A stretch of DNA of 64,000 nt from Azolla caroliniana (GCA_043228905.1 JBHGNT010000002.1:21762001-21826000); one strand, 5' to 3'; positions 7,556-41,169 are shown, counted from the first letter of the stretch. Numbers and translations are program-made. The notes: generated from the letters alone by a model not told the origin.

Positions 7556-7610
<55 letters not shown>

Positions 7611-7713
7611 GTGTGTAGGAAAGTGATAGGGAATGAGAGAAGGGAAATTAGTATAATGATGATGGTGAGGGGGGAGTTTTTAATGTGATGAAAAAGGGGG
7701 ATTTGGGATAATA

Positions 7714-13586: not shown

Positions 13587-14300
13587 ACGTATAACTTTAG
13601 AACGTTCCAATGCTTGACTCTCACGATGATCTTTCAATAGATTCTTGTAATAAAAAAATCGTCATCAGATTCCCCACCGTTTGCCATGCTTTTTAAACTT
13701 GCACAAATTGTACACCCATGCGAACCTTGCGTGGTATAACAACATTGTTAAATTTCAACCTCCATAATCTATTGAAACGGCGATATTGTACACAAGGTAC
13801 ACCTTGTAACGTGTCATCCCTATATTCTTGATAAACCTCATGTCGAGTAAAGTTATCTGACAAGTGCAATCTCCCAATAGTAGGAATGATATCATAATGC
13901 TTAGAGAAATAGACATGCATCCAATTTATATAATGACGCCCTATAATTCCCTTACCACTTGAGACATTAGTATCGAATAGTACATCCACGATCCCTTTAC
14001 CATATGTTCCTGAATCTTTTGAAGACTCATGTTCCTAATGCTATGAGCAATTTTAAAAGCAGCTCTACAACACTTAATACTAGACCAAGGTAATATTCCG
14101 CATGCGTCGACATAGCCCCTGCGCCCTGATCTCTAACAAGTTGCATATGTGAAATGAGAAATATATTTTGCTCAACACCATTAAGTGATAGTTACTTCTC
14201 CTGCATTCTTCATAAATTTATCTTTCCAAATTTGTTAAGGCCTAGATTGCCACAACATGACTTCTCGAATCGCAAATTATCTGATGATCGGAACATAGAA
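13587..14300 (-). pseudogene. Degenerate N-terminal part of a putative DNA transposase (Sola-like by eye), cut by element B
   Basis: ...CRAAFKIAH...; YINWM..YF..HYDIIP...LHL...VYQEY...FNRLWR..FNNVVIPRKVRMG-CTIC..L...H...QALER, with frameshifts. Catalytic residues are not in the window. Confidence 0.5.
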
Positions 14301-15324
14301 AGTTAAATCTCTTGAAGCTAACTTGTCAAGGAACTCGTTTAAAACTTAAAGGTTTGGTCTCGGAAACTTCATCTATTGAGATTTCATTCAACTCACGACT
14401 AGCACATTGCAAAACAATATTTGGTGCATTCTTATAAGGATCGGTTGAGAAAAGCGAGTTAGAACTAGTATGATTATACATCGGGTCATTTGAAACAGGT
14501 AATATGTCACATTTTAAGAACTTTCCATCAAAAAATGCACAAATTAGGGTGATTCACAAAAAGGGGTGCCGCATGTGTAAAGGATTTTAAAAAATGACCC
14601 AAAAATATATTGATTTCTAGCAGTACGAAATTTTAGGTGTTCAAAAAAATGCCTAAATAGTGGACATGCCAAACTTACAAATAAATGTCCAAAATGACTA
14701 ACACCAATATTTATAGAAATTCATGAATCCAAATCTTGATGTACAATACAATATTTATAGTTAACGTATCAGAACAATCGTTTTCCAAGTTTATGCCATC
14801 ATCTTCATACCCATTAGATAAACTAGTAGGAGTTTATCAAGTCTCATCCTAATCATCAATGGCAACTAATGCATTGTCTTCATCTAATTGCAATCCAACC
14901 TCATCGTGGTTATGAGTCATGCTTCTTATTTGTCTTTGTGTTGTGTCTGGAGCCACATTCGAGATCCTCTTTTAGTATCTTCATTGTGGTGTGTCGCAAA
15001 TAGCTTGTTTTGGTCAAAGATAAGTCATATACTAGTATATAAACATTATCCAATGTAAGAGTAGATGTGCTTGATGCATTCTTTCTTCTTCAATTTTTGT
15101 TTATGATATTTAATTATGTACTTTATATTTACGATATTTGATTATCTGAGAGAAACCTTCTACCAAAATCATTAGAATCTAAAAAATGTCGTAAAGATGT
15201 TTTTCGTTTTTCTTAGATTCTCATAGTAAGCCTTTGATGTCAAACAAAATCCGCCGATCACGCCGTGAATTGAGAGAGTCAAACTTATAATCAGAATTAA
15301 TGCCACATTGCTGATCCTTCCATC

Positions 15325-17220
15325 TAGATTTGATGCACTATGTCAAATTTTACTCTTTACATCTAGATTTTGATGTAGTGCATCAAATTTCTGTTGTAAG
15401 TCTTGGAATTTTCTAAAAAATTTCCATTAAAAAAATGCTCTTGCATTTTCAACTAAGACACAATGCATTGCATCGTATTCTAGCTATATAGACTAAAATA
15501 TGATACACTGCATTAGATTTCAGTTAAAAATCCACTTTTAAAATATCTTTAGAAAATGAATTTTTTTTTAAAAATCTTGGATTTTCGACTCAAATCTGAT
15601 GCATTGCATTGTGTTTTACTTTATACATCTAGAATCTAATGCACTGCATTGGATTTTAGTTGAAAATATGCAATTGTTTTATTTATTTCATTATTTATTT
15701 ATTTTTTCATTTTTTCTATAACAAGATTAAAATATAAAAAAATGTACTATCAATTGAAATTCGATGTATTGCAACCAATTTTAGTCTATAAAGCTAGAAC
15801 CCGATGCAATGCATTGGATTTTAGTTGAAAATCTATTTTTTTTAAAACAATGTTTTATATTTTTTCCATAAAAATAAAAAATTATGAAAAAATAGATTTT
15901 CAATTGAAATCCGGTGCACTACATCAGATTTTAGTCTATACAGGTAGAATCCGATGCATTAGATCATATTTCCATTGAAAATACATTGATTTTATTTATT
16001 TTTAGTCTTTTTGAATTTGTTTTATTTTTTCCATAAATAAATTGAAAAACTGAATTTTCAACTAAAATCCGATGCACTGCATCGGAATTTAGTATATAGA
16101 GTTAGAATCCAATGCAATGCATCGGATTTCAGCTGAAAATCCATTTTTTTGAATTTTTTTTATTTTTCCTATAAATAAATAAATAAAAATTGAAAAAATG
16201 GATTTTTTGTGCATTGGATTTCCATTGAAAATCCACTTTTTATTTATTTTTTTCAAATTTTTCCATAAAACAAAATCAAAAATTAAAAAATGTTGGATTT
16301 CCAACTAAAATTTCTAGTTGGAAATCCATCATTTTCTTGGCCATTTAAAATGATGGATTTTTAACAGAAAACCGATGCAATGCATCGGATTTCCATTGAA
16401 AGTCCAAGATTTTTATTTTATTTTTTTAATTTATCATGGATTTTCAACTGAAATACAACGCACTGCATTGGATTTCCGTTGAAATTCCAATATTTTTTTA
16501 TTCTTTCATTTTTTTATTAAAAAACTAAAAGAAATTTGGATTTTCAATTGAAATCCGATGTAGTGCATCAGATTTCAGTTGGAAATCCATTTTTTTAAAT
16601 ATTTTTATTTATTTATCAAAAAAAAGAAAAAGTATTTTCAGCTAAAATCCGATGCACTGCATCGAATTCTAGTTGTATAGACTAAAATCCGACGCAATGC
16701 ATCAGCTCTCAGTTAAAAATCTATTTTTTTATTTTTTTTATGTTTTATTGTTTAATTTATTTTATGGAAAAAAGAAAAAAATTTGGGAAAAGAAAAAAGA
16801 AAAATGGATTTTCGACCTTAATCCAATGCACTGGATTGGATTGTAGTTGTATGGACTAAAATACAATGTAGTGCATCATATTTTAACTAAAAATCCATTT
16901 TTTATTTTTTTATGGAAAAAAATTAAAAAATTAAAAACATTTCTTGGAGTTTGTATTGAAATCTAGTGCATTGCATTGGATTCAAGTTCAAAATCAAAGA
17001 TTTTTTATTTTTTCAAATTTTATCTAGTTGAAAATCCGATATAGTGAATCAGATCCTAAATGTGGCTCTAGACACTACACAAAGACAAACAAGAAGCATG
17101 ACTTAGAACCACGATGCATTGCATCGGATTATACTCTATACATCTAGTATCTAATGCAGTGCAATGGATTCTTGTTGTAAGTGTTGAATTTCCAACAAAA
17201 ATGCGATGCATTGTATCAGT
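15325..17220. repeat. Array of about two dozen degenerate palindromes (AATCCGATGCAnTGCATCGGATT) in AT-rich spacers
   Basis: Perfect cores near 16069 and 16371. Many copies occur as pairs about 40 bp apart. Confidence 0.85.
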
Positions 17221-17389
17221 TTTGAAAATATACAAAATTTCCCCTAGTTTTCTATGTAGTTAGACCTCCATTTTCTATAGATTTCACCACATTTTTTTGC
17301 TAAGAAATACTCATTTTATGGGAGTTATTCAATCTTTCCATGTAACCACAAACTCCACACATAATTTAAAAATGCAAATATAAAACCAA

Positions 17390-17910
17390 ATATGTGGGCA
17401 GCCAATGGTCCCCTCTTCCATGGTAATGCATCTTGGTCCGAAACAAAGTTACAACAAGTTGTTTCTGAAATAAAGTTCTTAACATGACAACAAGTTGAGA
17501 ACTATGGTCTACATTTTGAGACAAATCAATAACAAAGTGGATTGCATTTAATACTAAGAGACACATTCTATATAAATAGATATAAATTACGCATTGTAAA
17601 ATTTGTTCAATGGGGTACCATTTTCATAATTTGTAAAATTGGGGTTAATACAATTAAGCTTACATGGAATTCCATTCCTTATCTCCAAATTGGATATTAA
17701 AAGAACATGACAGATGGAATATGAAACTATTGACTTTCTTGTCATGAAAATAATTAGTTGAGAATTTTAGTATGTTTTAAGAAACCATGTATGCATGTGT
17801 CATACCATTGTGAAATTGTGCTGAAATGAGCCAGTTTTTAACATCTCCCCAGAAGTAAAAAAAAGAACATGACATATTACCTGTTTCAAATGTCCTAGTG
17901 TTCAGATCGT
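17390..17910 (+). pseudogene. Decayed Cys/His-containing ORF of unknown function, paralogous to 40784-41060
   Basis: GTIFIICKIGVNTIKLTW..YLQIG aligns with GTFKKICRMRLNPINVAW..YLRIG; both end in HITCFKCP.V; many stops. Confidence 0.5.
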
Positions 17911-18720
17911 TCAAGCAAACCCTTTACTGGACTTGGAACTTTGTACTCGTCGATTGAGAAATATGAGCTACTTGACAAGGCATATTGGCCCACAAATAAC
18001 AAAGAACCTCTACTCGAAGCGGAAGAAATCTGAAAAGCAACACTCAAGAAACAAAAACACATTACTACAAATAGACAAAACTCTTTCTCATTTTAGCATC
18101 TGCTTTGAAGCAAATTGTTCATATAAGAAAACCAAAAAACATACATAATTTATTTATAGTTTATTATCAACGTATTTTGTAGGTTTATTGTCCCCAAAAT
18201 TAGTTTTTATACGATTTTATTGTTTTATTTATTAAAATTACCTTACGTTATATCATTTCTTTAGGTTAAGTCTAATTCACCTTAATTTTCAAAATTTATT
18301 TTCTTTGTAAAATAATTTAATGTATTGTTATCATTTGAAGTTCAATTTATTTTCTATTTTTTCTTTTAAAAAACTTTTAATTGTAAAAGAATATTTTTAT
18401 TTGAAAACAAAATAATAATAATAAGTTACTATATAAAGGGTGGACCTACCCTCATTGTCAACATCACGTGTCATAAGATTACAGAGCTAAGAGCACAAAG
18501 CAAAAAAGTCATCGTTTCAGCCTTCAAAGTCAACACTCATCACTAGCCAAATATCATGAACAAGGGCAAAAAAGTCACCAAGCATGTCTCCCAAAAAAGA
18601 TTCTAAAAGATGCTTAAAAGATTCTTTGATAATTTTCTTGTTTAAGTAGTATTTTTTCTAATGTCATTTTCAAATTTTAGAAAAAGAAAAACAAGTTTAG
18701 TCAAACACAAAACAATAGCA

Positions 18721-19040
18721 AGAGAACTCGATGCAGTGCATCGAGTTCTCTCTCACGTTACCAAGAAAACTCGATGCACTACATCGAGTTCTCTTACAAT
18801 ACTATGAGAACTCGATGCACTGCATCAAGTTCTCATAGTATTGTAAGAGAACTCGATGCAGTGCATGGAGTTCTTTGTGAAAAGCAAGAGAACTCGATGT
18901 AGTGGATTGAGTTCTTGTATACTTTCAACGAGAATTCAATGCACTGCATCAAGTTCTCGAACACAACGAATATAATCCCATACGGTGCATCGGATTCGCG
19001 TACAAACATACAGGAGTCCGATGCACTGAATCGGATTTAA
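18721..19040. repeat. Second palindrome array (GAGAACTCGATGCAsTGCATCGAGTTCTC), about 8 copies at ~41-bp spacing
   Basis: Same GATGCAnTGCATC core with different flanking arms. Confidence 0.88.
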
Positions 19041-19929
19041 CAGAAAAATATGAAAAAATGGCCATGAAAAGAGCGCTTTTATAAGTGATTGTTTTACAGA
19101 ATACTCGTATATTAACTATAATTTTGTATGACATAATTAAGTTATCACATATTTTTCATATATTTTGGTGTCTTCTAATATCATTTTTACTTATAAACTT
19201 GTGTATCATATGACTGTGAGCCACGTCAAAAAGTTCCCTCCTTCAAATTAAAGATTCGGTCTCCGCAAAAGCATGAAATGGAGAATAATTTGAAAGACAA
19301 GTCGAGGAGAACATTATTCAAGTCATGAGGTGATGGAAAGCAAATAATGCTTCTTGAAGAAAAGACAACTAAGCAAAGAATAAAGAATTATTTAAGTTTG
19401 GAGTGGAGCTTGATATATGTTGAAGAAGATGGAACTCTACTCCTCATATTTGCGAAGACTAAAGGAAAAGGAAAGCTCGAGTTAGGTAAAACTTTTACCC
19501 ATGGAGAAGTTCGAAATATCGAGTATAAGGATAATGGTTCACCGAATATCTATATCGACGTTGAGAGCTCAGGTGGCACAAGGTGTGTACTTGTGGAGGA
19601 GGAGAACCTAATTATAGAATTGTGCCACCCGAAATTATTTCGAAAAGATATACAAACGAAGAGTAATTTAATTGTTGCTCTTTGACCTTATATAACTAGT
19701 GAAATGATAATGAAACAAGACGAGATGCCGCCAAAGCAGTCTCGAAAATCTAAACTGGAGCAGAGAAAATACCAGAAAAGACAAACACCCAAGGAGGAAG
19801 AAGTCGAACTTCTCGAATATTCTGAGGATGAGGAAGAGGAACTAGAGGTTTGTCCCTCTAGGTAGGCAGATCTCCTCTGGTGTACTAACTTCTGAATAGA
19901 ATAAAATTTGAGAGAATATCATTAAGACG

Positions 19930-20236
19930 AAGCTTGTGTGGAAGGGTCAACTCTTCCATCTTCCCATCACATCTATTCATCGCCCGCCTATAGACCCCGT
20001 AACAAGGAGAAGACCGCTTGAAATAAGAGAACTGCATTCGGTGCACGTCTAGAACTTGAAGTGTAAAATGAAAATTAATCCACATGCAACTGTTGTGCCC
20101 TTTTTCGTTATGGTCGACCCTGACCAATATCCAACAGTTGTGGATTTCAAATATAGTTCAGTGGACGATTACACCTATTATGTCATTGGAGGTTCTCATT
20201 CAGCTGAAGCTAGGAGACTACTTGTGAAGGAGTATC
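19930..20236 (+). pseudogene. 5' piece of the ParB-like/methyltransferase gene (ParB/Srx-like domain), cut by copia D
   Basis: LEIRELHSVHV.NLK..M..NP...VPFFVMV...YYVIGGSHSAEARRLLVKEY. The reading continues at 33431 on the minus strand. Confidence 0.6.
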
Positions 20237-23200
20237 TGTTGGTAATGTGGCCCTCTAGTGCGGAACAAATCAACACTCTTCGAGAGGGAAGATCATAAAC
20301 AGATACAAGCAAGGTAGATTGATGGCAACAACAGAATCGATAGAAAATGAGGCGCAACCATAACGCAAGATAGAGAGAGAGACGTTAGGCACAAGATGAA
20401 CTGTATTTTTAACCATCATCAAAACTAGGTTACAAAGTCAATTTATATACTGACTAACTTAGGGCAACTGCCCTTCTCACTATTTACATAAATAGCCTAA
20501 ACCTGGTGTGTACAATGGAAGACAATTTGAATACGTCCATTAGAGACCCGCATTCAACACTCCCCCGTAATGGGCATATACATCGAAATCTATACTAAAT
20601 CGAAATAAATGTACAATACAGATTGATACAAAGTTTTCGAGCAAATCGAAATTTCGTTTAAGTCGGTTAACTTCGAAAAACAAAAGGCCGAATTGGTGGA
20701 GGTTGGGGAAACTAAGACTAGGCTTTGAACTGTCTATGATGATTGTTCGTAAAACAACCTGAGTGTTTGACTCAATTGGATTGATTCTTCATTACGCCCA
20801 TTTGGTGCCGAAGGGATCGAAATCGATACGCCGAAAGACACTTGGTCATCTCATCTGAGACATTATCGGATGTAGATATCTTCTCGAGGCCGATTTTCCC
20901 TGAAATGATGCAGTCCCAAACAAAGTGATATCGAATGTCGATGTGCTTCGAGGCGTGGTGCTAGACCGGATTTTTCGACAAAGCAACAACGCCTTGACTA
21001 TCGCTATAGACAACTAGAGTCGAGTCAGATTTGACTTGTGGAAACGTGCATGCTAGCCAACTGAGCCATAAAGCTTCTTTCGTCGGGTTCGACGTGGCTA
21101 CGTATTCGGCCTCTATTGTTGATGTAGTAGTGCATTCCTGAAGTTTCGATTTCCACGAGATCGTTCCATTGTCAAATTTGAAGCAATATCCGGTTGTCAA
21201 TTTTTGACTATCCATGCAACTTGCAAAGTCTGAGTCAGTGTATCCAACCATGCATGAAGTGTCGTTTGGGCCAAATAGAATGCCAAGGTCTTTTGTGCCC
21301 ACCAGATATCTGAACACATGCTTGACTGCGTTCCAGTGCAATCGGCCTGGATTTTGCATGAATCTGTTGACGACTCCGACGACGTGAGGAATGGCATGCC
21401 GTGTCGCGTACATCAAGGAGCCAAGTGTTGGTGCATACGGTACCAACTTCATAATTTCCCCCTTTGAACTAGATGTCGGGCAATCTCGCTGAGACAGTCG
21501 AAGGCTAATGGGGAGCGGGATTGAAGCAGATTTTGTCGATTGCATGTTGAAGCCTTCGAGGACATGTCTAATATGGTCGGATTGGGACAAAAACAATTGT
21601 CTTCGATTTCGATTCCGATTAAGCTTCATGCCGAGAATGTGTCATACAGGACCGAGGTCCTTTGTGGCAAACTTCAACCACAGTTGCCGAACGAGTTTGG
21701 CAAGCTCTCCGGCTTGCCGACCGGAGATTAGCATGTCGTCCACGTAGATGTTGAGGAAGATGGGTCACCCATCTTGAGTCGTTTTCGTGAAGAGACAGTG
21801 GTCCTCATCACTCTTCGAGAAGCTGCCCGACAGTCATTTCAGGCCATATGGACTCTTCCAGCGTCAGCAGACTAGATGTTCCTGGCCGGGTGCCATGAAG
21901 CCTTACGATTGCTCCATATAAATTTCCTCCTCTAGATCACCATGGAAGAATGTCGTTTTGACATCTAGCTGAATCAGCTCCAAGTCCTTGGTTGCCATGA
22001 TGCCAAGCATGAATCTAAGGGTTGTCACTTTCACCAGTGGTGAAAATATTTCGTCAAAATCGATGCCATATTCGTGTCGAAAACCCTTGGCTACTAGTTT
22101 GGCCTTGAATTTTGGGGTGGCCGAATCAAACTTCTCATTGACTTGATAGGCCCACTTCCACAGAAGAGCATGTCGATTCTTCGGGAGCTCGACCAAGTCC
22201 TAAGTTTGGTTTGCTCGAATGGACTTCATCTTGGACTCCATTGCCAGATGTCAGGTGGCCGAATCGATAGATGTTGATGCTTCTTCGTATGATGTCGGTT
22301 CTCCGGCGTCCGTAAAGAAGATACCCGGAGAGTATCTCTCTAGGGGTTGTGACAGTCATTCGGATTCTCGAGGTATGACTAGACTGGTCGTTTCGGGTAT
22401 GAATGTCGGATGGTCTGGAACCGAGTTGTTCGGTTGTGCCCAGTCAGACGCTGCCGAGTCAATACTAGAGGTTTCGGCCGTCGTGAAGGATTGGCACATC
22501 CGAGAAAATTACCCTTCAGACTTCGATCGGCTTTTCAGCCGATTGATGCATGGGTGACTCATTGAACACTACATCCTAACTTCGGACAATATGTCTGTGC
22601 TCGGGGTCCCATAGTCGGTATTCGATTTCGCCATCTAGTGCATAACCGAGGAAAATACATTTCCTGGACCTTGGTGCAAGTTTGTGGCGATCATCTTTCG
22701 GTATGAGGGCGTATGCCTCGCACCCAAAGATCCTCAGCTTGTCATAATTCGGTTTGCTACCAGTCCATAATTCCTAAGATATCTTAAGTCCTAGAGGCCT
22801 ACTCGGTGACATATTGATAATGTGTATTGACGTAAGTAGGGCCTCCTCCCAGAACCCATCTGATAGTCCGAAGTGTTGGAGCATGGAAACTATCCTTTCT
22901 TGAATTGTCTGATTCATCCTCTCGGCAATTCCATTCTACACCAGACTATAGGGTGTCGTATATCCACGTCGTATGCCGTGTTGTTAGCAAAATCTGACGA
23001 TTTCTTCATATTTGAACTCTCCCCCGTTGTCGGTCCAAAAGCATTTTTCGGCTGGACTAATTCTCGACCATAGCGAGCCAATTGGAAAAGATAGAGAACA
23101 CTAGATCTTTGGTTTTGATCAGATAAGCCCACACCTTCTTAGTCGAGTCGTCAATAAAGCTGACGAAGTACAGAGCACCGCCGAGAGACTCATGTGGCAT

Positions 23201-24061
23201 AGGGTCACAGACGTCCGAGTGGACCAAATCGAGTGGATTCAATTCTCTTGGTGCTAATGTCGAATGTGATGCAGCTATCTGTTTGTCGTATTGGCAATGC
23301 TCGCAGAACAGATGATCAGGGAAGGAGAGTTTAGGGATGTATTCGGCCCTAGATAAATGCGTGATGCGGACCTTGCTGAGGTGTCTGAGTCGTCCGTGCC
23401 ATAGTGATGACACGGGAATGTCAACCAAGAACAAGTCACCCTCTCTGAGTGTGACGTATAGCGGGTACAACGAGTGTACTTTCGGTCCTCGAGCAAGCAG
23501 GAGGTTCCCCCTGTGGAGTGTCCACCCTCCTTATGAGAAGCCGGCACGGATGCCATCTTCGTCCAATTGTCCGACTGAGATAAAGGTCTTGAGAGCTCAG
23601 GTACATGTCGGACATTATGTAGTACCAATGTAGAGCCACCCGGAAGGTTGAGCTCTATTGTGCCGATTCCGGTAATTGCACAATGTTGTGAATTTCCGAC
23701 TCGAACTAAGTCAGAATGTCGGGCTAAGTATTGCCGAAATCGAGATCGATGAGGGGTCACATCAAAGGACGCACCTGAATCCAAGAGCCATGTGCTTGAT
23801 TCCTCCATTGTAAGCGGAACATCTAATTCGACTGGGTTTTCAATGGATAGAATGTTCGGGTCGTTCGACAATACTTCGGTTGAAGAGCCGACGTAGTTGA
23901 CCTCCTCATGCTAGCCACTCTTCTGATCAGCTCGTTGAGCCTTATCTCTTTTTGCCTTGAGTGCACGACGATCGTCTTTGATGTGTCTGAATTTCTTGCA
24001 ATAATTGCAGACTCGATTATCCTAGGACTTGCTCCGACTTCATTGGTTGTTTGGTTGTCGT
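20237..24061 (-). mobile_element. Element D, 3' half: degenerate Ty1/copia (gag zinc knuckle, protease, integrase, RT, RNase H, 3' LTR 20237-20559)
   Basis: CNYCKK..H, WLLDSGAS, LWHGRL.H..CEHC, VHSDV, FKAKLVAKGF, QLDVKT, YVDD, GYTDSD and KHIDIRYHF motifs; PPT GGGGGAG at 20560-20566. Confidence 0.92.
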
Positions 24062-30000: not shown

Positions 30001-30478
30001 CTCTTCTCATGTGGTCCATGCCATCGCACCACACGCATCTAAAGGGTTCTTTTCCTTTGGGCCCCCGATGATTCATGTTGGCTAGCGTAACCGTCTCAAA
30101 CTTCTTCGCCAGTTCTTCAATGATCTTGTCATCAATCTTCTTTTCTTCCGGGCTGCTTTGTTTGGGCGGCTCAGCTACTTTCAGTTGTCTAGTTTTCTCC
30201 GCAACAGTCGATCCCGCCAAGTCGGTGTCATCAACCCACTAACGACGCTTGTCGAGCCTATTGCATGCTTGCTTCACAGCAACCCAGTCCACCACAAGCC
30301 CATTTGCTTGGGTATCGTCTTCGAGAAGAGTCCCCAATTCTCGTCTATCCTTCATGTCCATAGCTTTCAAAAAGTACAAAGTCTTGTCCTCTTCAAGCAG
30401 CACTTGGTCCGTGTTGGGGAGACGACTAAACATCTGCTCGAATTCGTCGTACACCCTCGAGGCGCTCGCATTTCTAGA
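24062..30478 (-). mobile_element. Element C, 3' half: degenerate Ty3/gypsy related to B (gag C-terminus, protease, RT, RNase H, integrase, 3' LTR 24062-25203)
   Basis: CVWCDGMDH..RDC knuckle, ALIDHGSEIN, FLDDIPIKG, YNPEANGKIER; LTR has 12-bp terminal inverted repeat TGTCGTGAAGAT. Confidence 0.92.
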
Positions 30479-31433
30479 GGTTCCGAACATGAAAGACATC
30501 TAAAACAAGGGTTTTTTTGGTTTAGGGTGAAACACATGACACCTAAAATGCCGTTAGAAACCCTCGCATTCTAGTCACTGTCCAATCATTACAAACAAAT
30601 GATTCCAAGAAAATTGAATGGAGACTATATTACATAAACGTGTCACTCTGTTAAACTCGAAGTTGCACAACTTATACTTTATGTCTAAAGTCATACTATC
30701 TAAGATTCCAAGAGAGTCTGAGATCGTAAAGTTCCTCTAACTATACTTTTTTTCTCAAGTCACACTATTATCGAAGATTCTTAAGGTATCAAATTTCAAC
30801 AACTATGATCAAGTCACACTACTATCGAAGATTCCAGGAGTGACAAAGTTCAACAATTAATATGTAACTATATACATTTAGCAATGATTCAAACAATATA
30901 TATACTAGAATCCAAGAGAGGTAAAGGTCAAGAAATGATACAATAAAGAATTCTACATTTTGCTTTCCTATTCAAGGAGTTCCTATTGATTGTTAAACAC
31001 AGTCACATTGCGATTTATGCATTTATCGACCAATTGACTCATACATATATCCATATAAAGCTAAACAACAACATATGTACTTAAGAAATATACATCACAA
31101 CTTAAATTAACATCAAAGTTGACTATATATTCGAACGAAAGAGTTAAAGTATATAAATCATAACTTGCATTAATTAAGTCAATGGGTTCCAAATTCATCA
31201 TGTTCAATTACATTAAGCCATATGCAATCAATCTATCAACAAGTCTAGAATGGCGGGCTCTTCTGGACCAATTGGTTGTTGTAGATCATCCTCATTGGCC
31301 TCTTCAGTACATGCAATTGAATTTAAGATCTGGTCAGACTTTGATATGTCTTCCAAGTCAACAAGATCCCCTGCTTCTTCATTAATTGGCTCCATTGGTT
31401 CTTAGGATGCCAATTGGAATCATTAAGTTTCGT

Positions 31434-33431
31434 TTATATGTTTAGCTCAACTTCTTGGTCTTGATCAAGACAATCCCAGATACCTTGGATCCGCATTTTG
31501 ATGAAGTGGACTTGTTCAGAGTCCTTCTCTAGTGCAACAGAGTTCATGAACATCTTTAGTGCACATGTTGCCGTAGTACATGAAAGCATAAAGCATGTCA
31601 AATTACATTCTCTAACCTTTGTCACAAACCACAATAACATCCATATACTATAATCCAAACATATGTCATTAAACTTATACACTTTACCTGTGCCTGAGAA
31701 CAAATCTAGCACCTAGTCATTTGGGTTGGAGAAGAGCTTGATCAGGTGTTTGATCAATCTTTGTAGTTTTTGGTAAGGGTTAACTACTATTGTCGCAAGA
31801 TATATGGCATAACTTTTTGTCATGGCGGGGCACATGATATAATTGACAACGTTCCTTTCATTCACATGTGCCCGCACCTTCTTCTATGTGATTGAGTCAT
31901 AGTAACCAACAGAAATATGGTCAACCGCACTAACCATTCGTTCGCACAGACTACATGTAATATTCGTTTTGATCTTGTCAAATTCACACATTCAATGTTA
32001 CCATTGTTACATTGTAAAGTTTTTGCAACATATTTTAACAATTTGAATACTATAACTTACCAATGCATGTGTTTGGTAGCATCACAACGCAACTTCAATG
32101 CAGTTGTTATAGATAAATATTGACCCATGATGTGAAAAATCACAATTCACCACTATGGTGCAAGGCTCAACTCTACGAAGTCTTTCACCATTTTTTCTAT
32201 TTGAGGATATTTGAAAGGCACATCATCATTCATAAATCCTATGATATGGAATCAATATGGAATGTCTACAATCAACAATGTGTAGTGCTTTTTAGTAATA
32301 TGCTAAGCGTATTAGGCACTTCCTCGTTGAACACACTATAGTGCAATTGTCGAAAAGGGTCAGTCGTATGCAAAAAACTTTTAATTGTCTTCAAATCCTT
32401 AGACACATTTATATCCTTAGGCACATTTAGCTTCTTCCCTTTCGTCATCCTCTTCTCGTATTTAGCTCTTTCCAAGTACGTGATAAACGAACTTGGAATG
32501 CCTTCATTTGTATCACTTGTTTTCTTCGATCGAGGTGGTTTTTGCAATTATCAACTCTGTTAGGATATTACAACAAAAGCACTTAAAACAACACAATACC
32601 AATACAACCTATCTAAAACTACAATTACACTTACCCATTCTCTAAATACAATAAAGAATTATTCCAAAGCCTTGTACGATGATGTTATTGGGCATGCTTG
32701 TTCAACTTCTTCCCATGTTGGTAGGCATAGCTTCTTCATCATCAACTCTTGAATTTTCATATATACTTTGTGGCTAAAGAAGAAATAGAATATGTTGTCA
32801 GTGATGAAATGTAGAATTAGTCAAACCAAGATGACTTCTAAAAAATACTTACTTTTGGAATTCTATAACCATCTCATATAACGAAAACTCTTTTGCGGCC
32901 ACTCGAGAAAGCACATATATTAACAATCTCTCGTCCTTGATTCCTTGTAGTGACCGCCATGGCAAGAAGTTCATATCTTCAGGTAACTCTTCAATAATCA
33001 AGTCACTCTTCTGTGACTTTGCCTTTGTCTCTACTTGAGGGTCAAATTTGGCCTTTTTTGCCTGTGACCTTTTATTTCTTTACGCTCCCACATTGTAAAG
33101 ATTTTGTCATGTAAATCCTAGAAATCGCCAGTTCAAAATGCCAGTTGAAACCACAAATCATACTTTCTTAAGCCTTCCGATTTCATGCTTTCGTCAACAA
33201 CTATCCCAACTTCAACCAAACATTGTCGACGCAAACCAGGATAGAGCTTGGAACCACATCTTTTCAACGTATCAAGATATTCATAATGAAATAATCTAAT
33301 CCTTTCAATACATGACATATTCTGTCAATAATCGTTGTCATTGTTATGGTTCCAAGCCAACAACTTGGCCTCTTCATGTATAAATCCAACGTAAACTTTG
33401 CATTCAATATACTTGAAGAATGGGGTCAGTG
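31434..33431 (-). pseudogene. 3' piece of the ParB-like plus beta-class DNA amino-methyltransferase gene, intron-containing and inverted
   Basis: PLTPFFKY.ECKVYVG..HEEAKLLAWNHN; YTLLIVDIPY (DIPY at 32255-32266); VNPYQK..RLIKHLIKLFSNPND*VLDLFSGTG, intron, TTATCAL...NSVALEKD. Confidence 0.7.
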
Positions 33432-33612
33432 GATTTTGTTGAATGCAAGTCTCTAATGGACGTATTCACATTGTCTTCCTTTGTACACACCATGTTTAGG
33501 CTATTTATGTAAATAGTGAGAATGGCAGTTGCCCTAAGTTAGTTAGTATATAAACTGACTTTGTAACCTAGTTTTGATGATGGTTAAAAATACAATTCAT
33601 CTTGTGCCTAAC

Positions 33613-33658
<46 letters not shown>

Positions 33659-34057
33659 CGTTCTGGTTGCATCTCGTTTTTTGTCGATTTTGTTGTTGCC
33701 ATCAATCTACCTTGCTTGTATCTGTTTATGATCTTCCCTCTAGAAGAGTGTTGATTTGTTCAACACTAGATGACCATGTTACCAACATCTGGTATCAGAG
33801 CTCGAGGTCCTTTCTATTCTGTTGTTGTCATCTATCTAGTCTCCATCAACAACTCTTCTTCTGTACACCATGAAGATCTTGGTTGGCAACTCTCTACAAG
33901 ATCGTTTTCTCAAAGAGAAACACCAGCAAAATCTTCACTCCACTATTCTAAATCAACATTGAAGTGAGTCAATCGGTTGCACTTCACTCCTATGATTGTA
34001 GCCGTTCGGAGTGAGATTTCACTTCACAAGCTCTGCCTCAACTGTTACGGGCATGAC

Positions 34058-35998
34058 TGTCACGGACACACCAAGTGCGGACTAAGACGAAGCACGGATG
34101 ATGAGGCTACGACGGAGCGATGACGGAATGACACAAGAGCATAAAGACAGAGATGAAGATTAAGGAGAGAAGATGGGCGAAATGAGAATACTAGATTGAT
34201 ATGTCCATGACTGGCATTGTTCACCTTGAATTCCTTCAAGGTGAACTCAACTATTTATACTAAGTGGCATGCATACCTGTTGCACGCATGTGATACAATA
34301 GAGCATGTAGGCAGTAGGTACGCATGCATGTGCCAAGTGTAAATAATACAAGGGAGAAATTATGCACATGATGCTAGCTAAAACCTACAATGAGGAAGTA
34401 TATACATGATTATATGCTAGATGTGTGGTTAACACATAACACTCGATTATAACATCGTCATGTCAAGAGTTCAAATCTTGACATTATCCCCCCTCCAATG
34501 ATGCCTTCCCAAATCGTTTGTCGGCTTAAGGGGATATTGTTGATGAAAATCTTAGATCACCTCCAAAGTATTTTATAAATCCTAGACAAGGAGGAACCCT
34601 TCCACAAGATGAGGTATTCAACACCAACGGGCATGAGTGACCATGTGTGGTCCTCGCCTAGGACTGGAACACAAATATCAACGGGTGTGAGCGACCATGT
34701 GCGGTCCTCACGGGGAGCATGAACACCAAGGGGCATGAGTGACCATGTGTGGTCCTTGCCGGGAACTAGAACGGTCCTTGCTGAGAGTTGGAACACGAAC
34801 ACCAATGGGCGTGAGCAACCATGTTGTCCTCACCGAGAATTGGAACACGAACGAGTGAGTGACCATGTGGCCCTCACCGAGAACAAGAACACGAACGGGA
34901 GTAATCGACCATGTGTGGTCCTCACCGGGAACTGGAACATGAACAACAATGGGCATGAGGGATCATGTCGGTCCTCACCGGGATCTGGAACACGAACAAT
35001 AGTTGGAGTGAGCAACCATGTGTGGTCCTCACCGGAGATTGGAACATGAACACCAACGGGCGTGAGCGACCATGTGTGGTCCGCAATGAGAATTGGAACA
35101 TGAACCGCAATGGGCATGAGCGACCATGTCGATCCTCGCCGGGATGTGGAACATGATAAATAATTGGAGTGAGTGACCATGTGCGGTCCTCACCAAAGAC
35201 TGGAACACGAATGGGAGTGAGCGACCATGTGGCCCTCACCGGGAACAAGAACACAAACTGGTGTGAGTGACCATGCGGCCCTCACCGGGAGCTGGAACAC
35301 GAACACCAACGGGAGTGAGTGGCCTTGTGCGGTCCTCATCGGGAACTGGAACACGAACACCAACGGGAGTGAGAGTCCTTGTGCGGCCCTCACTGGGAAC
35401 TAGAACATGAACACGAACGGGAAAGAAACTAAAAAATAGAGACAATGATGAGGAGAAACTAAAAAATAGAGACAATGAAGCAATGTTGATGATGGTACGG
35501 TGATGATGGTAACTCTAGAAGCAAGGGCGATGATGGAGACGGGTGATGCTTCTAGTTGGAAGGTGAACAAACTGTCACGGACACACCAAGTGCGGACTAA
35601 GACGAAGCACGGATGATGAGGCTACGACGGAGCGATGACGGAATGACACAAGAGCATAAAGACAGAGATGAAGATTAAGGAGAGAAGATGGGCGAAATGA
35701 GAATACTAGATTGATATGTCCATGACTGGCATTGTTCACCTTGAATTCCTTCAAGGTGAACTCAACTATTTATACTAAGTGGCATGCATACCTGTTGCAC
35801 GCATGTGATACAATAGAGCATGTAGGCAGTAGGTACGCATGCATGTGCCAAGTGTAAATAATACAAGGGAGAAATTATGCACATGATGCTAGCTAAAACC
35901 TACAATGAGGAAGTATATACATGATTATATGCTAGATGTGTGGTTAACACATAACACTCGATTATAACATCGTCATGTCAAGAGTCCGAATCTTGACA
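34058..35998 (-). mobile_element. Element F: young non-autonomous LTR element (426-bp LTRs at 34058-34483 and 35573-35998)
   Basis: LTRs near identical (2 differences seen); 5-bp TSD ATGAC; minus-strand PPT GGAGGGGGGATAA; no coding domain. Confidence 0.93.
34615..35420. repeat. ~54-bp tandem minisatellite (about 15 degenerate units) forming the interior of element F
   Basis: Unit TGGAACACGAACACCAACGGGCGTGAGCGACCATGTGTGGTCCTCACCGGGAAC-like. Confidence 0.88.
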
Positions 35999-38900
35999 AT
36001 GACCATATAATAACCCGTGGTGAGAATTTACCATAGTATCCTATACACGTGGATAAGTGTGAGGGTTAAACGAGAGTGTAAAGAAGGGTGCCGATCCACC
36101 TGATCACCCCCGAGCAAAGGGATCGAGACGGACTCGAGCCTCGATCAGCGTCCCATACCACCGTCGTGGCTTCGAGTCGTACGTGGTGCTAGCGCGCTCA
36201 TTACAAGAGTTGACCCACCACGAAACAGAGTCTCGACGTAGTCATGATATGATGAAATGAGGGTAGCTAGGCCTCATATTTATAGCGATACCCAAGACCC
36301 CTAGGCAAGTTCACACTTGGCCTAACAGGTTGTCTCAATCCCGAGGATTAAAAGTAATCCTCCCTTTCTTTACACTCTACACTCGTTCTCATCTCCACTC
36401 AATTCTATTGACCTAAGATGCGTCCTGACATACATAACTATGTGATTAAATGTCACCAATGTCAGGTTAACAAAGCCGAACGACTTAAAGCCGCATGACT
36501 TTTACATCCCTTGGACATTCACAATAATAAGCGGGAAAGTATATCCATGGATTTTATTGTTAGCCTTCCTCACACCCAAAAAGGCCATGATGCCATCTGA
36601 GTTGTGGTTGATAGACTAACTAAAATGGCTAGATTTATTGCTACTAAAACCACGGTAACAACTCTTGAATTGGCTTACCAATTTGTTGACGAGTTATTTC
36701 GTTTTTATGGGTTACAGATGGATATTGTGAGTGATCAAGATCCAAAATTTACTAGTGACTTCTGGACGCAATTCTTTAAGAAGTTAGAAACTACGTTGAG
36801 CATGAGCTCCATGGATCATCCTCAATCCGATGGACAAATAGAACGAGTAAATCAAATTATTGAGGACAGGCTTCGATAAACCAACAAAATGGGAACGTTA
36901 TCTCCCAATTTTGGAGTTTGCTTATAACAGCTCCAAGCATACGTCGACGGGATATAGTCCTTTTATGTTGATGTATGGTTTTCAGCCACGAGCCCCGATT
37001 CATGTTAATATACATCACGATGAGTTGCGAAGTACGCAAAACTTTCTTCGGGATATGCAAGATATGTTGCATATTGCACGAGATAATATAAAAAGAGCTC
37101 AAGATAGAGCGCGTTTTTACGCCGATCATAATAGGCAACCTCGTGTATTCAACCCTGGACAGAAGGTATTTTTACGTGTACCTCACAATTCTAAGACATT
37201 ATCTACGGGTAAGTGTGCTAAGTTAGCCCCATGGTTTTGTGGACCTTTTCAAGTCCTCAAACGCATTGGATCATCAGCCTATCATCTCGCTCTTCCCGAT
37301 GGTGTTGAAATTCATCTAGTTTTTCATGTAAGTCATCTAAAAGAACTTCTAGGTTTTGGCGACAATACAGTTACAACTGAAACTCTGGTTACTTCTGAAG
37401 AATTATCTTCTAAACCACATGTACCAGAAAGAATTCTCAATGTTAAAACAAAAAATTTGTGTACTAAAACAATTCGAGAATTTAAAATTAAATAGATGGA
37501 TAAATCTATCAAAGATGCCACATGGGAAAGCGAAAATACTCTTAAAACTAACTTCCCTAACTTTCCATTGCAAGAGTGCGATGTTTTAAAGAGGGGGGGG
37601 AGTATGTTACGGGCATGACCATATAATATCCCCTGGTGAGAATTTACCGTAGTATTCTATACACGTGGATAAGTGTGAGGGTTAAATGAGAGTGTAAAGA
37701 AGGGGAGGATTACTTTTAATCCTCGGGATTGAGACAACCCGTTAGGCCAAGTGTGAACTTGCTTGGGGGCCTTGGGTATCGATATAAATATGAAGCCTAA
37801 CTACCCTCATTTCATCATATCTTGACTACGTCGAGACTCAGTTTCGTGGTGGGTCAACTCTTGTAGCGAGAGCGCCAGCACCGGCTACGACTCGATGCCA
37901 CGGCAGTGGTATGGGACGCCGATCGAGGTTCGAGTCCGTCTCGATCCCTTCGCTTAGGGGTGGATCAACACCCTTCTTTCTCTCTCTCCTTTCTATCTAT
38001 CTATCTTTTATCCTTATCATATGCTTACTTTAGATCATATCTCTAACATCAACCATACTACATTGGATTAAACAACAATCGAATAGGTCGCCTGACACAA
38101 GTCACTCACACGTTGTAATCACTCGTAGTAGTCTAGGCTCCAGGAACAACCCCCTTCCGTGCTTCATTCGGCTATACAACATTTAGAAAGGTTAGTTGAA
38201 TTTGTTCATCTCATTGTCGTAGTCACTTGAAGCACGATCGGCCCGGATAATCGGCATATACTTTGTGTTCGAAAATCTCGAAAATTGACATTCGAAATCA
38301 AATTGGCAAACTCGGGTCCAATTCGACTAAGTCGATTGACTGTAGTCACTTCAGACAGAATTCGGCAAATAGTCGAAACCGACTCGACTTGTGTCCAATT
38401 TCGGCTAGAATAACATCGAGTGAGCCAGTCAGCCGCACTCCACCATTGTTCGTGGTCGATTGCGGACAAAGTCTATCAAGCTGACACAGATGGCATCAAT
38501 ATTTGGCTCGTAAGAGATGAGTCTAAGGAAGTTCGACGGATCGAACTTCAACTTCTGGAAGGAGTAGATGCAAGACTATTTAATAGTCAAGGGGCAAATT
38601 GACCCCATCGAAAATGAAAATTCTCCAGAAGGATACAAGCCGCTTGAATGGGAGAAGCTCGACAGAATCGTCTGAGCCACCATTCGGATGCACCTATTGG
38701 AGTCTGCGTACTTCACGGTGCAATCGTGTTTGACTGCCTTTCAACTATGGAAGACATTGTCGGACACTTACAATAAGAAGGTTGCCGCCACCAAGATATA
38801 TCTGATTGGGTGCCTTCATAATCTTCGGATGAAAGAATCCGACTTGGTCCAGGCACACCTAAACGAGTATGAAAGCATAAGTTCCCAAATTGCGGCTTAG

Positions 38901-39142
38901 GGACAACTATCGAGGATGAACTAAGAGCAATACTACTTATGAGTAGTCTCCCCCATTCGTGGGAAACTTTTGTTACTATGTGGAATGCGTCGACTATTGT
39001 CGTTAAGTACTCCTCAGTCACGAGTGCAATTCTGACTGAAGCAGCTCGAAGAAAATCGTTTGTGAACTATTCGACCAATGACGCTTACGTAGTACAAGGT
39101 TCGACTAACCGATCGAACAACCGAGGAAGAGGTTCTTCACGG

Positions 39143-40784
39143 TGTCGTGAAGATTTTTGGTAATGGTGTGAAAATCACATAAGACGTACGAAATCAAGTG
39201 TCAATCATATAAAACAATAATAGTGAATATACTAATTCTAAGTAAGTTTAATATCTTAGTACAAAAAGATGGAGGTCTTCAAGAGCTTTCAAATGTGCTT
39301 TACCACATAAAAAACGGACATCTAAGTGACAAGTTATGTGGGAGTGAAGTATGAAAAAGAAGAAGAGAAAAATAAAACTGTGAGATATCCCACATAGACA
39401 GGAAATAAGGATCTCACCATATATAAGGTAGAACAAAAGCTATTATCTTTGTGTCTATGTGTGGAGCATAGAGAGTTCAAGGTGACTTGAACTAAGCTAT
39501 TGGATGAATGGGTGTGGCCTGGCTACTTGCAAAGGTTTTGCCCAACCAAAACTGGACCGACAACGTAACTGACATCCGACAACAGAACCGGGATCCAGTG
39601 ACCGAATGGTAATCGTCATCCAGCGACGGAATCGGGATCCGGCGACCGAACGGTAACCGACATCCGGCATCTGGCGACCGAAAGATAACCGGCATTCGGC
39701 AACCAATGACGGAACCAAAATTTGGCGACCGACGGTAATCGGCGGCGACCGGCATCTGGCGACCAAATAGATATATAAACAAATAAATAAATATATGTAT
39801 ACACATATACAAGGAAGGCAAGTGAAGATTCGAACCTTGCACCTCCTAATTAAAAGTCAGTAGGCTTACCACATTGAATTTATATTTCTATCATTGTACT
39901 TTTACATATAAATTCTCATACATGAGAGCTAAAATGAGTGACATGGTTATCATGCACCACATGTAATACATGAGCGTCAAATGGCAAACATGCATTTTAT
40001 GCATGTCTTGTACCCTCACATGCATCATATGCATGAGAGCATCTATAAAAGAAGGGACGAAAAAGAAGAAGGGTTAGGCTCTTTTGGTTATGAAATTAAG
40101 AAGAAGAAAATTCGTTATCGAATTGATCGTGTAACTTGTTTCTTAAAACTAAAGATAAAAGTTCAACCAATCTCTCTCAATCTAAAGTCAAGCGTTTAAT
40201 CTCAATTTCTCTCTTTCCCAATCTATCTTAAATACTTCCTCACTAAAGCTTGTACTGACTTCGAATCCTTCCGGTCCAGAACCCCGGCGGTTCCGCCTCA
40301 CGATCCGCGCCTAGTGACGGATCTTCACGACATAATGAAGTGGTGAACCCGTGGTGAAAGAGGCGGTAGGAAGGATCAAGCGGATATTAATACTTGGAGA
40401 TGGCATCCTCAAGCAACCAAGTGGGAGAGCTCGAAAGGATGATGCTAATCGTTGAACAAATGATGAGATCTCGAGACAACGATGCGAGCGTGGAGAAGGC
40501 TGTCGACCGTGTCGTAGAGCTCGAGGGTCAATTTGATGGAAGGAATGTTACGAAGTTCCTTGACACATATAGAAGGGAGATGAATCAAAGGGACGTGTCT
40601 AAAGCACGTCAAATCGCAAGCTTCAAGAGAGTTGTCACCAACAACGTCCAAAGACACGTCATCGAACCTCAAGAAGGTAAGGCAACATGGTCTGAGTTCG
40701 AGAAAACGATACTAGCAGAGTTCGCGACTGAAGACTCAACGAGGATGACTCGACATGCCCTGATGAAGTGGATAGAGAAGAAGT
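39143..40784 (+). mobile_element. Element C, 5' half (5' LTR 39143-40332, PBS, gag N-terminus)
   Basis: The LTR closely matches the reverse complement of 24062-25203. PBS TGGTGAACCCG at 40341-40351 matches the 3' end of plant tRNA-Trp as recalled. Gag motif GQFDGRNVTKFL. Confidence 0.9.
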
Positions 40785-41169
40785 TTAAGAAGATATGTAG
40801 AATGAGGCTAAATCCAATTAATGTTGCATGGATTTTCACTTATTACCTAAGAATTGGGACTGACTGAATATAAGACTATTGGTTTTACTGTCATGAAATG
40901 TTACACTTAAGAAATCCATCATATTTTAAGAATAGATGTACACATGCGCATACCTTTCAGTAAAAGTCTGAGAAAATTATGCAATTCTTAATGACTCAAT
41001 CGGATATGAAAAAGAGAAAACGACATATTACCTGTTTCAAGTGTCCCGGTGTTTGCAATGTTTTCCAGAGGATTCACAAACTTCTATCACAAGTTTATAC
41101 AAGATTACTCGAAACTCATTTTGCTTCTAACACAACTCACAAAGAAGGATAAATAATTTGTTTGGATTG

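What the first reader, a model, noticed from the sequence alone, without database searches (positions are those of the whole stretch)
13587..41060. Fossil multi-gene DNA element carrying a ParB-like/DNA amino-methyltransferase fusion
Seen: removing the LTR elements and undoing the inversion gives, in order, a leftward transposase-like gene, palindrome array 1, a Cys-rich ORF, palindrome array 2, a rightward spliced gene and a second Cys-rich paralog. The spliced gene has a ParB/Srx-like N-terminus (YYVIGGSH..AR...EAKLLA..HN), motif IV DIPY, then NPYQK...VLDLFSGTGTT...VALEKD. Known: motif IV before FxGxG is the beta-class N6A/N4C methyltransferase order, ParB-MTase fusions occur in phages and some algae, and liverworts have a co-opted 4mC enzyme. 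Inference: a large plant DNA transposon that may write its own 6mA or 4mC mark. This copy is dead.
Basis: partly seen in the sequence, partly recalled or inferred. Interest (0 to 1): 0.85.

Follow-up and report, generated by a model that had tools for sequence, protein, structure and literature searches.

The report
Plant transposon carrying own DNA methyltransferase
This is a dead copy of a plant jumping-gene family whose intact relatives carry a bacterial-style DNA-methyltransferase gene and rows of a DNA palindrome that the protein likely binds to mark the element's own DNA; this design was already proposed for algal transposons, and the plant family adds an exact candidate binding sequence to test.

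Summary
Real, but the anatomy needs correcting. The window holds a broken copy of a 6-8 kb Sola-like cut-and-paste transposon. Intact relatives (80 metagenome loci) show the layout: TIR, leftward DUF7869 RNase-H-fold transposase, palindrome array, rightward six-exon ParB-fold/beta-class amino-methyltransferase gene (968 aa), TIR. Termini are 5'-AACAC; one locus shows a 4-bp target duplication. Thirty of 37 spliced models are open, all keep DIPY, NPYQKP and DLFSGTG, and the methyltransferase has dN/dS about 0.04. The core CGATRC-N3-GYATCG is about 100-fold enriched between the two genes. Homologous proteins occur in Chara, Riccia, two ferns and Ginkgo. The two 'Cys-rich ORFs' are not genes: they are right ends (TIR DNA). 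Array 1 belongs to a nested 3.4-kb non-autonomous derivative. Likely mechanism: a dimer binds the palindromes and writes 6mA on the element's own promoter region; binding, activity and effect are untested. The design is in print for algae (Ectocarpus Sola1-1_Ec32; Bostrychia Plavaka); my searches found no land-plant report. This scan noted the same family before on other pieces of this genome and similar elements in other genomes.

The parts
13587..14476 (-). Element A: 5' part of the transposase pseudogene (about residues 52-339 of the intact 890-aa protein); cut on the left by an LTR ending at 13586; the catalytic core is not in the window
   Evidence: tblastn with the intact L005 transposase; sequence
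14477..17902 (.). Element B: 3.4-kb non-autonomous derivative of the same family, TIR at both ends, inserted into the 5' part of A's transposase
   Evidence: TIR matches at 14477 (+) and 17902 (-); transposase residues 7-36 lie to its right and 52 onward to its left; no target duplication visible (ATTA versus CAGA)
14477..14513 (+). Left TIR of element B
14840..15089 (-). 3' end of the transposase gene kept in element B (residues about 796-879)
15370..17219 (.). Palindrome array 1 (16 copies of YCGATGCA-N-TGCATCGR with up to 3 mismatches, many with CG to TG/CA decay), inside element B
17560..17902 (+).
17903..18555 (.). Element A: transposase start (about 17943-18032, minus strand) and the divergent promoter region
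18556..18581 (+). Predicted 26-nt first exon of the ParB-methyltransferase gene (MNKGKK..); donor degenerate in this copy
   Evidence: same mini-exon in L005, L006, L036, L071; in-frame join in L005; no RNA evidence
18728..19034 (.). Palindrome array 2 (8 copies, about 41-bp spacing), in predicted intron 1
19218..20236 (+). Exon 2, first part: N-terminal domain, acidic linker, first half of the ParB fold (to YYVIGGSHSAEARRLLVKEY)
   Evidence: fold of the intact relative
20237..24061 (-). Copia-type retrotransposon inserted in exon 2 (3' LTR 20237-20559 and internal part)
24062..30467 (-). Gypsy-type retrotransposon nested in the Copia (3' LTR 24062-25203 and internal part)
30468..40792 (.). 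Inverted segment (about 10.3 kb)
   Evidence: collinearity with L062 breaks at 30468 and resumes near 40793
32853..33431 (-). Exon 2, second part: end of ParB fold, predicted helix-turn-helix region, linker
32635..32773 (-). Exon 3 (helical linker)
32061..32547 (-). Exon 4: motifs X, IV (DIPY at 32255-32266, followed by a stop in this copy), V-VII; start approximate
31688..31974 (-). Exon 5: NPYQK and motif I (DLFSGT at 31692-31706)
   Evidence: Pfam N6_N4_Mtase
31228..31580 (-). Exon 6: motifs II-III (VALEKD), acidic tail, stop; acceptor lost, start approximate
33437..39142 (+). Rest of the Copia (5' LTR 33437-33787, gag) with further nested LTR pieces, turned by the inversion
39143..40792 (+). 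Gypsy 5' LTR (39143-40332) and start of gag, turned by the inversion
40793..41053 (+).

Best explanation
The window holds a dead copy of a Sola-like cut-and-paste transposon family whose intact relatives carry a conserved ParB-fold/amino-methyltransferase gene beside an array of palindromes, and the protein likely binds those palindromes as a dimer and likely writes N6-methyladenine on the element's own promoter region, which would help the element stay expressed under host 5mC silencing. Shown: element anatomy, TIRs, linkage of the two genes, open reading frames, motif conservation, purifying selection, position and consensus of the palindrome (AANTCGATRC-NNN-GYATCGANTT). Predicted by models: ParB fold, RNase-H fold, homodimer. 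Inferred: that this protein rather than the transposase binds the array; that the base is adenine; that the effect is anti-silencing; that array-bearing derivatives such as element B are served in trans.
For: L005 is a complete 7,594-bp element with both TIRs, one 897-codon transposase frame and a six-exon GT-AG gene of 968 aa without stops. Transposase head-to-head upstream in 14 of 80 loci; distances of the two proteins co-vary (Mantel rho 0.52, p 0.0007, 12 loci, two near-duplicate pairs among them). 30 of 37 spliced models open, all with DIPY, NPYQKP, DLFSGTG, EKD, at 59-100% identity. Pooled dN/dS 0.04 (methyltransferase) and 0.02 (ParB) over 19 chosen pairs; unsaturated pairs give 0.05-0.09 for the methyltransferase. 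Pfam PF01555 41-42 bits, cut-off 26.7, for 3 of 3 intron-read-through relatives; Ginkgo homologue E 7.6e-18. Best solved matches are beta-class adenine enzymes: CcrM E 1.7e-4, MboIIA; RsrI, MboIIA, CcrM E 2-5e-6 for the Ginkgo protein. ParB region: top 10 Foldseek rows all Noc/ParB, best E 2e-4; VIA PadC Z 9.7 (rmsd 2.6, 95 aligned), KorB Z 8.5 (rmsd 10.6, 131 aligned). Two copies of that region: score 0.37, best of 3 controls 0.01; mark reached by 21 of 30 solved homodimers and 0 of 23 monomers (eukaryotes 17 of 29 and 0 of 30); runs agree in at least 47% of contacts, pLDDT at least 64; may be from memory of solved ParB dimers. Palindrome core: 142 copies in 51.7 kb upstream/intergenic DNA against 8 in 286 kb elsewhere; present in 28 of 32 loci with at least 500 bp upstream; de novo scan gives the same consensus from 85 distinct sites. 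The core is kept across three subfamilies whose TIRs have diverged, and two deletion derivatives keep arrays (element B; L023).
Against: No binding, activity, methylome or expression data. D in motif IV favours but does not prove adenine (recalled: some 4mC enzymes have DPP-aromatic motifs). The ParB nucleotide motif is changed (GGSH where chromosomal ParBs have an arginine patch, recalled), and the helix-turn-helix region is weakly modelled (pLDDT 50-75; KorB/ParB DNA-binding domains only Z 2.9). The transposase has its own winged-helix-like domain (model residues 46-125) that could bind the array. 4 of 32 loci lack the core, L005 and L006 have one copy only, and at least three loci with 1.5-2.1 kb upstream show no transposase. 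The palindromes in the window have decayed at CG, so this copy was not protected from 5mC. CGAT is not enriched in element bodies (331 seen, 369 expected). The target duplication was seen in 1 of 4 complete loci. High-coverage contigs are collapsed repeats and may look more intact than single copies. Linkage to a transposase in Chara, Riccia, Ginkgo and the named ferns was not testable.
Confidence: 0.55

Rival explanations
1. Same binding, but the enzyme writes N4-methylcytosine, for example on the CG of the CGAT half-site, and so competes directly with host 5mC.
For: PF01555 covers both reactions; the invariant half-site holds a CG; a beta-class 4mC enzyme works on CG in Marchantia sperm (bioRxiv 2021.02.12.428880, passages).
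Against: Motif IV is DIPY/DAPY/DFPY/DLPY/DIPH across homologues, never SPPY; the Marchantia enzymes have TSPPY; nearest solved and NCBIfam matches are adenine enzymes.
Confidence: 0.15
2. The protein marks its own element to restrain or time it (autorepression of the divergent promoters, or coupling transposition to replication through hemimethylation, as Dam does for IS10; recalled), not to escape silencing.
For: The array sits between or just inside the two divergent genes, the place of an operator; KorB, a ParB-type repressor, is among the top fold matches.
Against: Deletion derivatives that have lost both genes keep or enlarge the array (16 copies in element B), as expected of a site that benefits the copy; plant precedents VANC and TnpA bind clustered motifs to activate (bioRxiv 2026.08.24.746577, passages).
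Confidence: 0.15
3. The array is bound by the transposase or a host factor, and the methyltransferase acts elsewhere (TIRs, transposition intermediates, genome-wide or RNA).
For: The transposase has a winged-helix-like domain; plant transposases can bind and activate their own elements; phage ParB partners of DNA-modifying enzymes can act without a DNA-binding domain (PMC13229309, abstract).
Against: The array core is constant while TIR sequences differ between subfamilies; ParB proteins bind inverted repeats, and arrays lie beside a ParB gene in an unrelated red-algal transposon (bioRxiv 2025.02.11.637652, passages).
Confidence: 0.12
4. A captured passenger gene without function for the element.
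For: DNA transposons often carry captured genes; many copies, including this one, are broken.
Against: dN/dS about 0.04 with saturated synonymous sites, five conserved intron positions, congruent trees with the transposase.
Confidence: 0.02

Closest known systems
Sola1-1_Ec32 of Ectocarpus (PMC12477816; passages, supplement rows)
   Same: Sola-type element, 4-bp target duplication, termini starting AAC, a second gene on the opposite strand encoding ParB-like plus N4/N6 methyltransferase domains (1,104 aa); self-modification already proposed there.
   Different: Brown alga, 21.5 kb, 282-bp TIR, AACCG termini, 2 intact copies, no palindrome mentioned in the main text (0 hits). Here: land plant, 6-8 kb, 32-37-bp TIR, AACAC termini, many open subfamilies, defined palindrome array, selection measured. 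Homology of the two proteins was not tested (sequence not in hand).
Plavaka accessory genes PAG2/PAG3 of Bostrychia (bioRxiv 2025.02.11.637652; passages)
   Same: ParB-domain protein beside tandem arrays of inverted repeats, proposed to bind and modify its own transposon; a PF01555 methylase also on the element.
   Different: EnSpm/Plavaka transposase; ParB is fused to a 2OG oxygenase and the methylase to a SET domain, on separate genes.
VANC of VANDAL and TnpA of Spm (bioRxiv 2026.08.24.746577; passages)
   Same: Transposon-encoded accessory protein acting on clustered motifs of its own family; the functional model borrowed here.
   Different: Those factors remove 5mC through host pathways and carry no methyltransferase; short non-palindromic motifs.
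Beta-class N6-adenine methyltransferases CcrM, M.MboIIA, M.RsrI, DpnA and phage PHROG 67/498
   Same: Motif order IV before I, best sequence matches.
   Different: Prokaryotic, no introns, weak similarity; no close prokaryotic or viral relative found.
MpDN4MT1 of Marchantia and N4CMT of rotifers
   Same: Bacterial-type beta-class amino-methyltransferase in a eukaryote.
   Different: Host genes, 4mC, SPPY-type motif, no ParB domain mentioned, not on a transposon.
ParB/Noc/KorB clamps on parS-type palindromes
   Same: N-terminal fold followed by a helical region; modelled dimer through the N-terminal domain; palindromic site array.
   Different: Nucleotide motif diverged; fused to a methyltransferase; no ParA partner on the element.

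Membership tests
Sola superfamily (Sola1-like) DNA transposon | RNase-H-fold transposase with three acidic catalytic residues | tested here: met
   Model pLDDT 88; VIA top rows integrases Z 10.0 (rmsd 3.1, 135 aligned) and Mos1 Z 9.4 (rmsd 3.4, 160 aligned); D189, D270, D312 at least 90% conserved in 60 sequences; Foldseek best E 1.1e-3
Sola superfamily (Sola1-like) DNA transposon | Terminal inverted repeats | tested here: met
   32-37-bp TIRs; 40 distinct ends, first five bases AACAC in 39, 38, 40, 40, 34 of 40 (ends were found by likeness to four seed TIRs); boundary placed by empty-site matches
Sola superfamily (Sola1-like) DNA transposon | 4-bp target site duplication (PMC3627910 passage, PMC12477816 supplement row) | tested here: inconclusive
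   Seen in L034 (same 4 bases both sides; flanks map to residues 748 and 750 of a related Gypsy pol); not seen in L005, L038, L067 or window element B
Sola superfamily (Sola1-like) DNA transposon | Sequence similarity to curated Sola1 transposases | not testable with these tools
   No Repbase; Pfam gives DUF7869 (E 1.7e-52); motif layout parallels the Sola2 alignment by eye (PMC3627910 file S10 part 1); the Sola paper was not held
Sola1-1_Ec32-type element with ParB-methyltransferase accessory gene | Second gene on the strand opposite the transposase with ParB-like plus N4/N6 methyltransferase domains | tested here: met
   against the description
Sola1-1_Ec32-type element with ParB-methyltransferase accessory gene | Common descent of the accessory protein | not testable with these tools
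   Ectocarpus sequence not in hand; none of the 20 homologues looked up by name was a brown alga
Beta-class amino-methyltransferase (PF01555) | Motif IV (D/S-P-P-Y type) before motif I (FxGxG) | tested here: met
   DIPY at 688, DLFSGTG at 847 in L005; kept in 30 of 30 open models
Beta-class amino-methyltransferase (PF01555) | Pfam score above the curated cut-off | tested here: met
   41-42 bits in 3 of 3 relatives, cut-off 26.7; the broken window fragment 26.3
Beta-class amino-methyltransferase (PF01555) | Methyl transfer to DNA adenine N6 or cytosine N4 | not testable with these tools
   needs assay or modification calls
Eukaryotic 4mC enzymes (MpDN4MT1, N4CMT) | SPPY-type catalytic motif | tested here: not met
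   DIPY here; TSPPY in Marchantia
ParB/Noc/KorB CTPase clamp | ParB/Srx N-terminal fold | tested here: met
ParB/Noc/KorB CTPase clamp | Helix-turn-helix DNA-binding domain after it | tested here: inconclusive
   Foldseek alignments span about 290 columns of Noc/ParB, but isolated KorB and ParB DNA-binding domains score only Z 2.9 and this part has pLDDT 50-75
ParB/Noc/KorB CTPase clamp | Arginine patch GxxRxxA (motif recalled) | tested here: not met
   GGSHSAEA; GG[SGNQ]H[ST] in homologues
ParB/Noc/KorB CTPase clamp | Nucleotide-gated loading at a palindrome and spreading | not testable with these tools
   dimer model only
CACTA/EnSpm (CMC) | CACT(A/G) termini, 2-3-bp duplication, Transposase_21 (recalled; Pfam assignment in PMC5751038) | tested here: not met
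   termini AACAC; no Transposase_21 hit

The most novel reading that the evidence does not exclude
The ParB domain is still a nucleotide-gated clamp: it loads at the palindrome array like ParB at parS, slides along plant chromatin and spreads 6mA over the whole element and over array-bearing non-autonomous copies in trans. Streptophyte transposons would then have run a bacterial load-and-spread epigenetic writer from Chara to Ginkgo, a transposon-made source of plant 6mA and a compact programmable marking module.
Probability: 0.18. Interest if true: 0.9.

Novelty: new member of a known kind. Interest (0 to 1): 0.57.

Why it matters
Whether transposons write their own non-5mC mark has been proposed for algal elements but, in the passages I read, not tested. 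This family makes it directly testable in land plants: there are intact alleles, an exact 23-bp candidate site, three subfamilies with site variants, natural non-autonomous reporters, and a homologue in the model fern Ceratopteris (77% identical in the ParB core). A positive result would give a mechanism for localised 6mA or 4mC in plant genomes and a new kind of transposon counter-silencing. The copy in this window is only a fossil.

Tried and rejected
No whole genome is held for the window, so copy number and linkage in the host were tested on metagenome contigs only. Cys-rich genes: rejected. Inversion by recombination between the two Gypsy LTRs: rejected, the breakpoints lie elsewhere. CAC/CACTA termini with an AA|TT target: rejected by empty sites. 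Pfam, PHROG, NCBIfam and PDB sequence searches gave no ParB hit (only DUF6551, E 0.01-0.08); the assignment rests on the model. Single exons against PDB gave only weak hits. No close relative in viral or prokaryotic contigs (exact-word scans, low sensitivity). Five single palindrome matches in viral contigs, not followed. k-mer scan for a methylation target and CpG o/e (0.66-0.82 in four elements, 0.62 in the window copy, 0.97 in two window retroelements) were uninformative. No RNA holder listed and no reads were laid, so splicing and expression rest on comparison, including the same exon 2-3-4 junctions in the Ceratopteris annotation P0025. The protein atlas gave no answer. The methyltransferase domain and the N-terminal domain were not folded. 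Not held: the Sola paper and Iyer 2011, which PMC12477816 cites for similar proteins in green-algal transposons; it may bear on novelty. bioRxiv supplements were not seen.

Full report
1. What is in the window. The region is a nest of insertions. A Copia element (LTRs 20237-20559 and 33437-33787) splits exon 2; a Gypsy element (LTRs 24062-25203 and 39143-40332) sits in the Copia; a later inversion of about 30468-40792 turned the 3' part of the gene. The gene copy has many stops, frameshifts and lost acceptors. No whole genome is held.

2. Intact relatives. A search with a 149-residue window piece gave 26 proteins, 25 from metagenome assemblies and one from Ceratopteris. A contig scan confirmed 145 relatives and kept the best 80. 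L005 is a complete 7,594-bp element: TIR, a leftward 897-codon frame, a short intergenic region, a rightward gene of six GT-AG exons giving 968 aa without a stop, TIR. The window copy aligns over 938 of these residues. Of 80 loci, 37 gave a five-exon model and 30 of these are open, all with DIPY, NPYQKP, DLFSGTG and EKD. Pooled dN/dS over 19 chosen pairs is 0.04 for the methyltransferase and 0.02 for the ParB region; many pairs are saturated, and the unsaturated ones give 0.05-0.09. Caveat: high-coverage contigs are collapsed repeats.

3. It is a transposon. The leftward gene is DUF7869 (E 1.7e-52); its model (pLDDT 88) matches integrases and mariner transposases (Z 9-10; Foldseek best E 1.1e-3), with three conserved aspartates. 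It lies head-to-head upstream of the methyltransferase gene in 14 of 80 loci; most others end too soon, but at least three with 1.5-2.1 kb upstream show none. The two proteins' distances co-vary (rho 0.52, p 0.0007, 12 loci). All three subfamilies have 32-37-bp TIRs starting AACAC (40 distinct ends). L034 shows a 4-bp duplication whose flanks map to neighbouring codons of a Gypsy pol; L005, L038, L067 and window element B show none. These traits fit Sola, which I could compare only by published features and by eye.

4. Corrections. The 'Cys-rich ORFs' end exactly in TIRs at 17902 and 41053 and are non-coding. A third TIR at 14477 pairs with 17902: 14477-17902 is a non-autonomous derivative that keeps the transposase 3' end, 16 palindromes and the right end, inserted between codons 36 and 52 of the main copy's transposase. 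The family plan is therefore two genes and one array region.

5. The accessory protein. Relatives read through introns score 41-42 bits on PF01555 (cut-off 26.7); nearest solved sequences are CcrM, M.MboIIA, M.RsrI and DpnA. The middle region has no ParB hit by sequence, but its model (pLDDT 68) returns Noc and ParB in the top ten Foldseek rows and PadC, KorB, pNOB8 ParB and sulfiredoxin by VIA. Two copies model as a dimer through the ParB domain: 0.37 against a best control of 0.01; 21 of 30 solved homodimers and 0 of 23 monomers reach the mark; contact agreement at least 47%, pLDDT at least 64; one of three runs scored 0.01, and the pass may come from solved ParB dimers. The nucleotide motif is GGSH, without the arginine I recall for chromosomal ParBs. 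A profile search found 476 representatives; of 20 looked up, 14 are named: Chara (5), Riccia (3), Adiantum (4), Ginkgo (2). Seven of 29 scanned pass PF01555; motif IV reads DFPY, DLPY, DAPY, DIPH or DPPY. Their genomic context was not testable.

6. The palindrome. In the window, 14 matches against 0.02 expected. Across loci the core CGATRC-N3-GYATCG occurs 142 times in 51.7 kb upstream of the gene and 8 times in 286 kb elsewhere; 28 of 32 loci with enough upstream DNA have it. A de novo scan gives AANTCGATRC-NNN-GYATCGANTT. Copy number runs from 1 to 15. In the window's subfamily the array lies in predicted intron 1. The core stays fixed while TIRs diverge, and deletion derivatives keep it. 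In the window it has decayed at CG. Element bodies show no enrichment of CGAT.

7. Mechanism. Most likely a dimer recognises the two half-sites and the fused enzyme methylates adenine in or near the array, next to both promoters, favouring expression, by analogy with VANC and TnpA. Anatomy and selection are shown; folds and dimer are predicted; binding, base and effect are inferred (0.55). Rivals: 4mC (0.15), autorepression or timing (0.15), array bound by the transposase (0.12), passenger (0.02).

8. What is known. An earlier scan note pointed me to PMC12477816, which I checked: Ectocarpus Sola1-1_Ec32 carries, opposite its transposase, a 1,104-aa ParB-like plus N4/N6 methyltransferase, proposed to modify its own element; 4-bp duplication, AACCG termini (passages; supplement rows). 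Bostrychia Plavaka elements have inverted-repeat arrays beside a ParB-oxygenase gene and a separate adenine methylase (passages). Iyer 2016 lists no such land-plant clade in the parts read (PMC4738411, passages and section 8). Also seen as passages: PMC8885841, bioRxiv 2021.02.12.428880, PMC4455052, PMC5751038, PMC3627910 (plus supplement S10 part 1), bioRxiv 2021.09.26.461848, bioRxiv 2026.08.24.746577, PMC12344493; abstract only: PMC13229309. Searches listed no land-plant report; Iyer 2011, Repbase and subscription papers were not seen.

9. Verdict. A real, well-conserved system and a new member of a kind already proposed in algae. It earns interest because the plant family supplies intact alleles, an exact site and evidence of selection, which make self-marking testable. 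Six earlier notes of this scan describe the same or similar elements; they are not independent support. Interest 0.57.

Noticed in passing
window 57-4837: Gypsy chromovirus-type retrotransposon with uninterrupted gag (398 codons) and pol (1,203 codons, chromodomain), so probably young.
   Followed up: partly
window 7085-11200: A 3.9-kb strongly G-skewed insertion flanked by a 125-bp direct repeat (99%), splitting a Gypsy pol; holds a 40-bp tandem array and a 662-codon minus-strand frame (7874-9862) without Pfam match.
   Followed up: no
window 34056-35998 and 36072-37986: Two 428-bp repeats 99.5% identical around a 54-bp tandem array, then a small inversion bounded by LTR pieces.
   Followed up: no
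window 42481 onward and 51730-52569: A host gene that reads like the chaperonin CCT6 (recalled, not tested) starts 1.4 kb right of the element's end; an APO RNA-binding domain gene lies further right (Pfam).
   Followed up: no
L007 3960, L023 3280, L039 4040: Family members insert into each other (into transposase or methyltransferase genes), as element B does in the window; L023 holds another deletion derivative that keeps arrays.
   Followed up: partly
L038 10952-15592: Right flank made of 550-590-bp repeats in both orientations with tRNA-like segments; left flank has an AACT-rich array and a CxC-containing frame without Pfam match.
   Followed up: no
L005 transposase C-terminus (about residues 720-840) and methyltransferase gene N-terminus (about residues 80-185): Two conserved small domains, beta-rich by eye, with no family assignment; possible chromatin readers. 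Not folded.
   Followed up: no
P0036, P0155 (Ginkgo), P0119, P0173, P0178: Ginkgo homologues have DIPH in motif IV; P0119 has an N-terminal SAM domain; two distant metagenome homologues have DPPY and may be algal.
   Followed up: partly
L081-L085: Single exact matches to the 23-bp palindrome in five viral contigs; probably chance.
   Followed up: no
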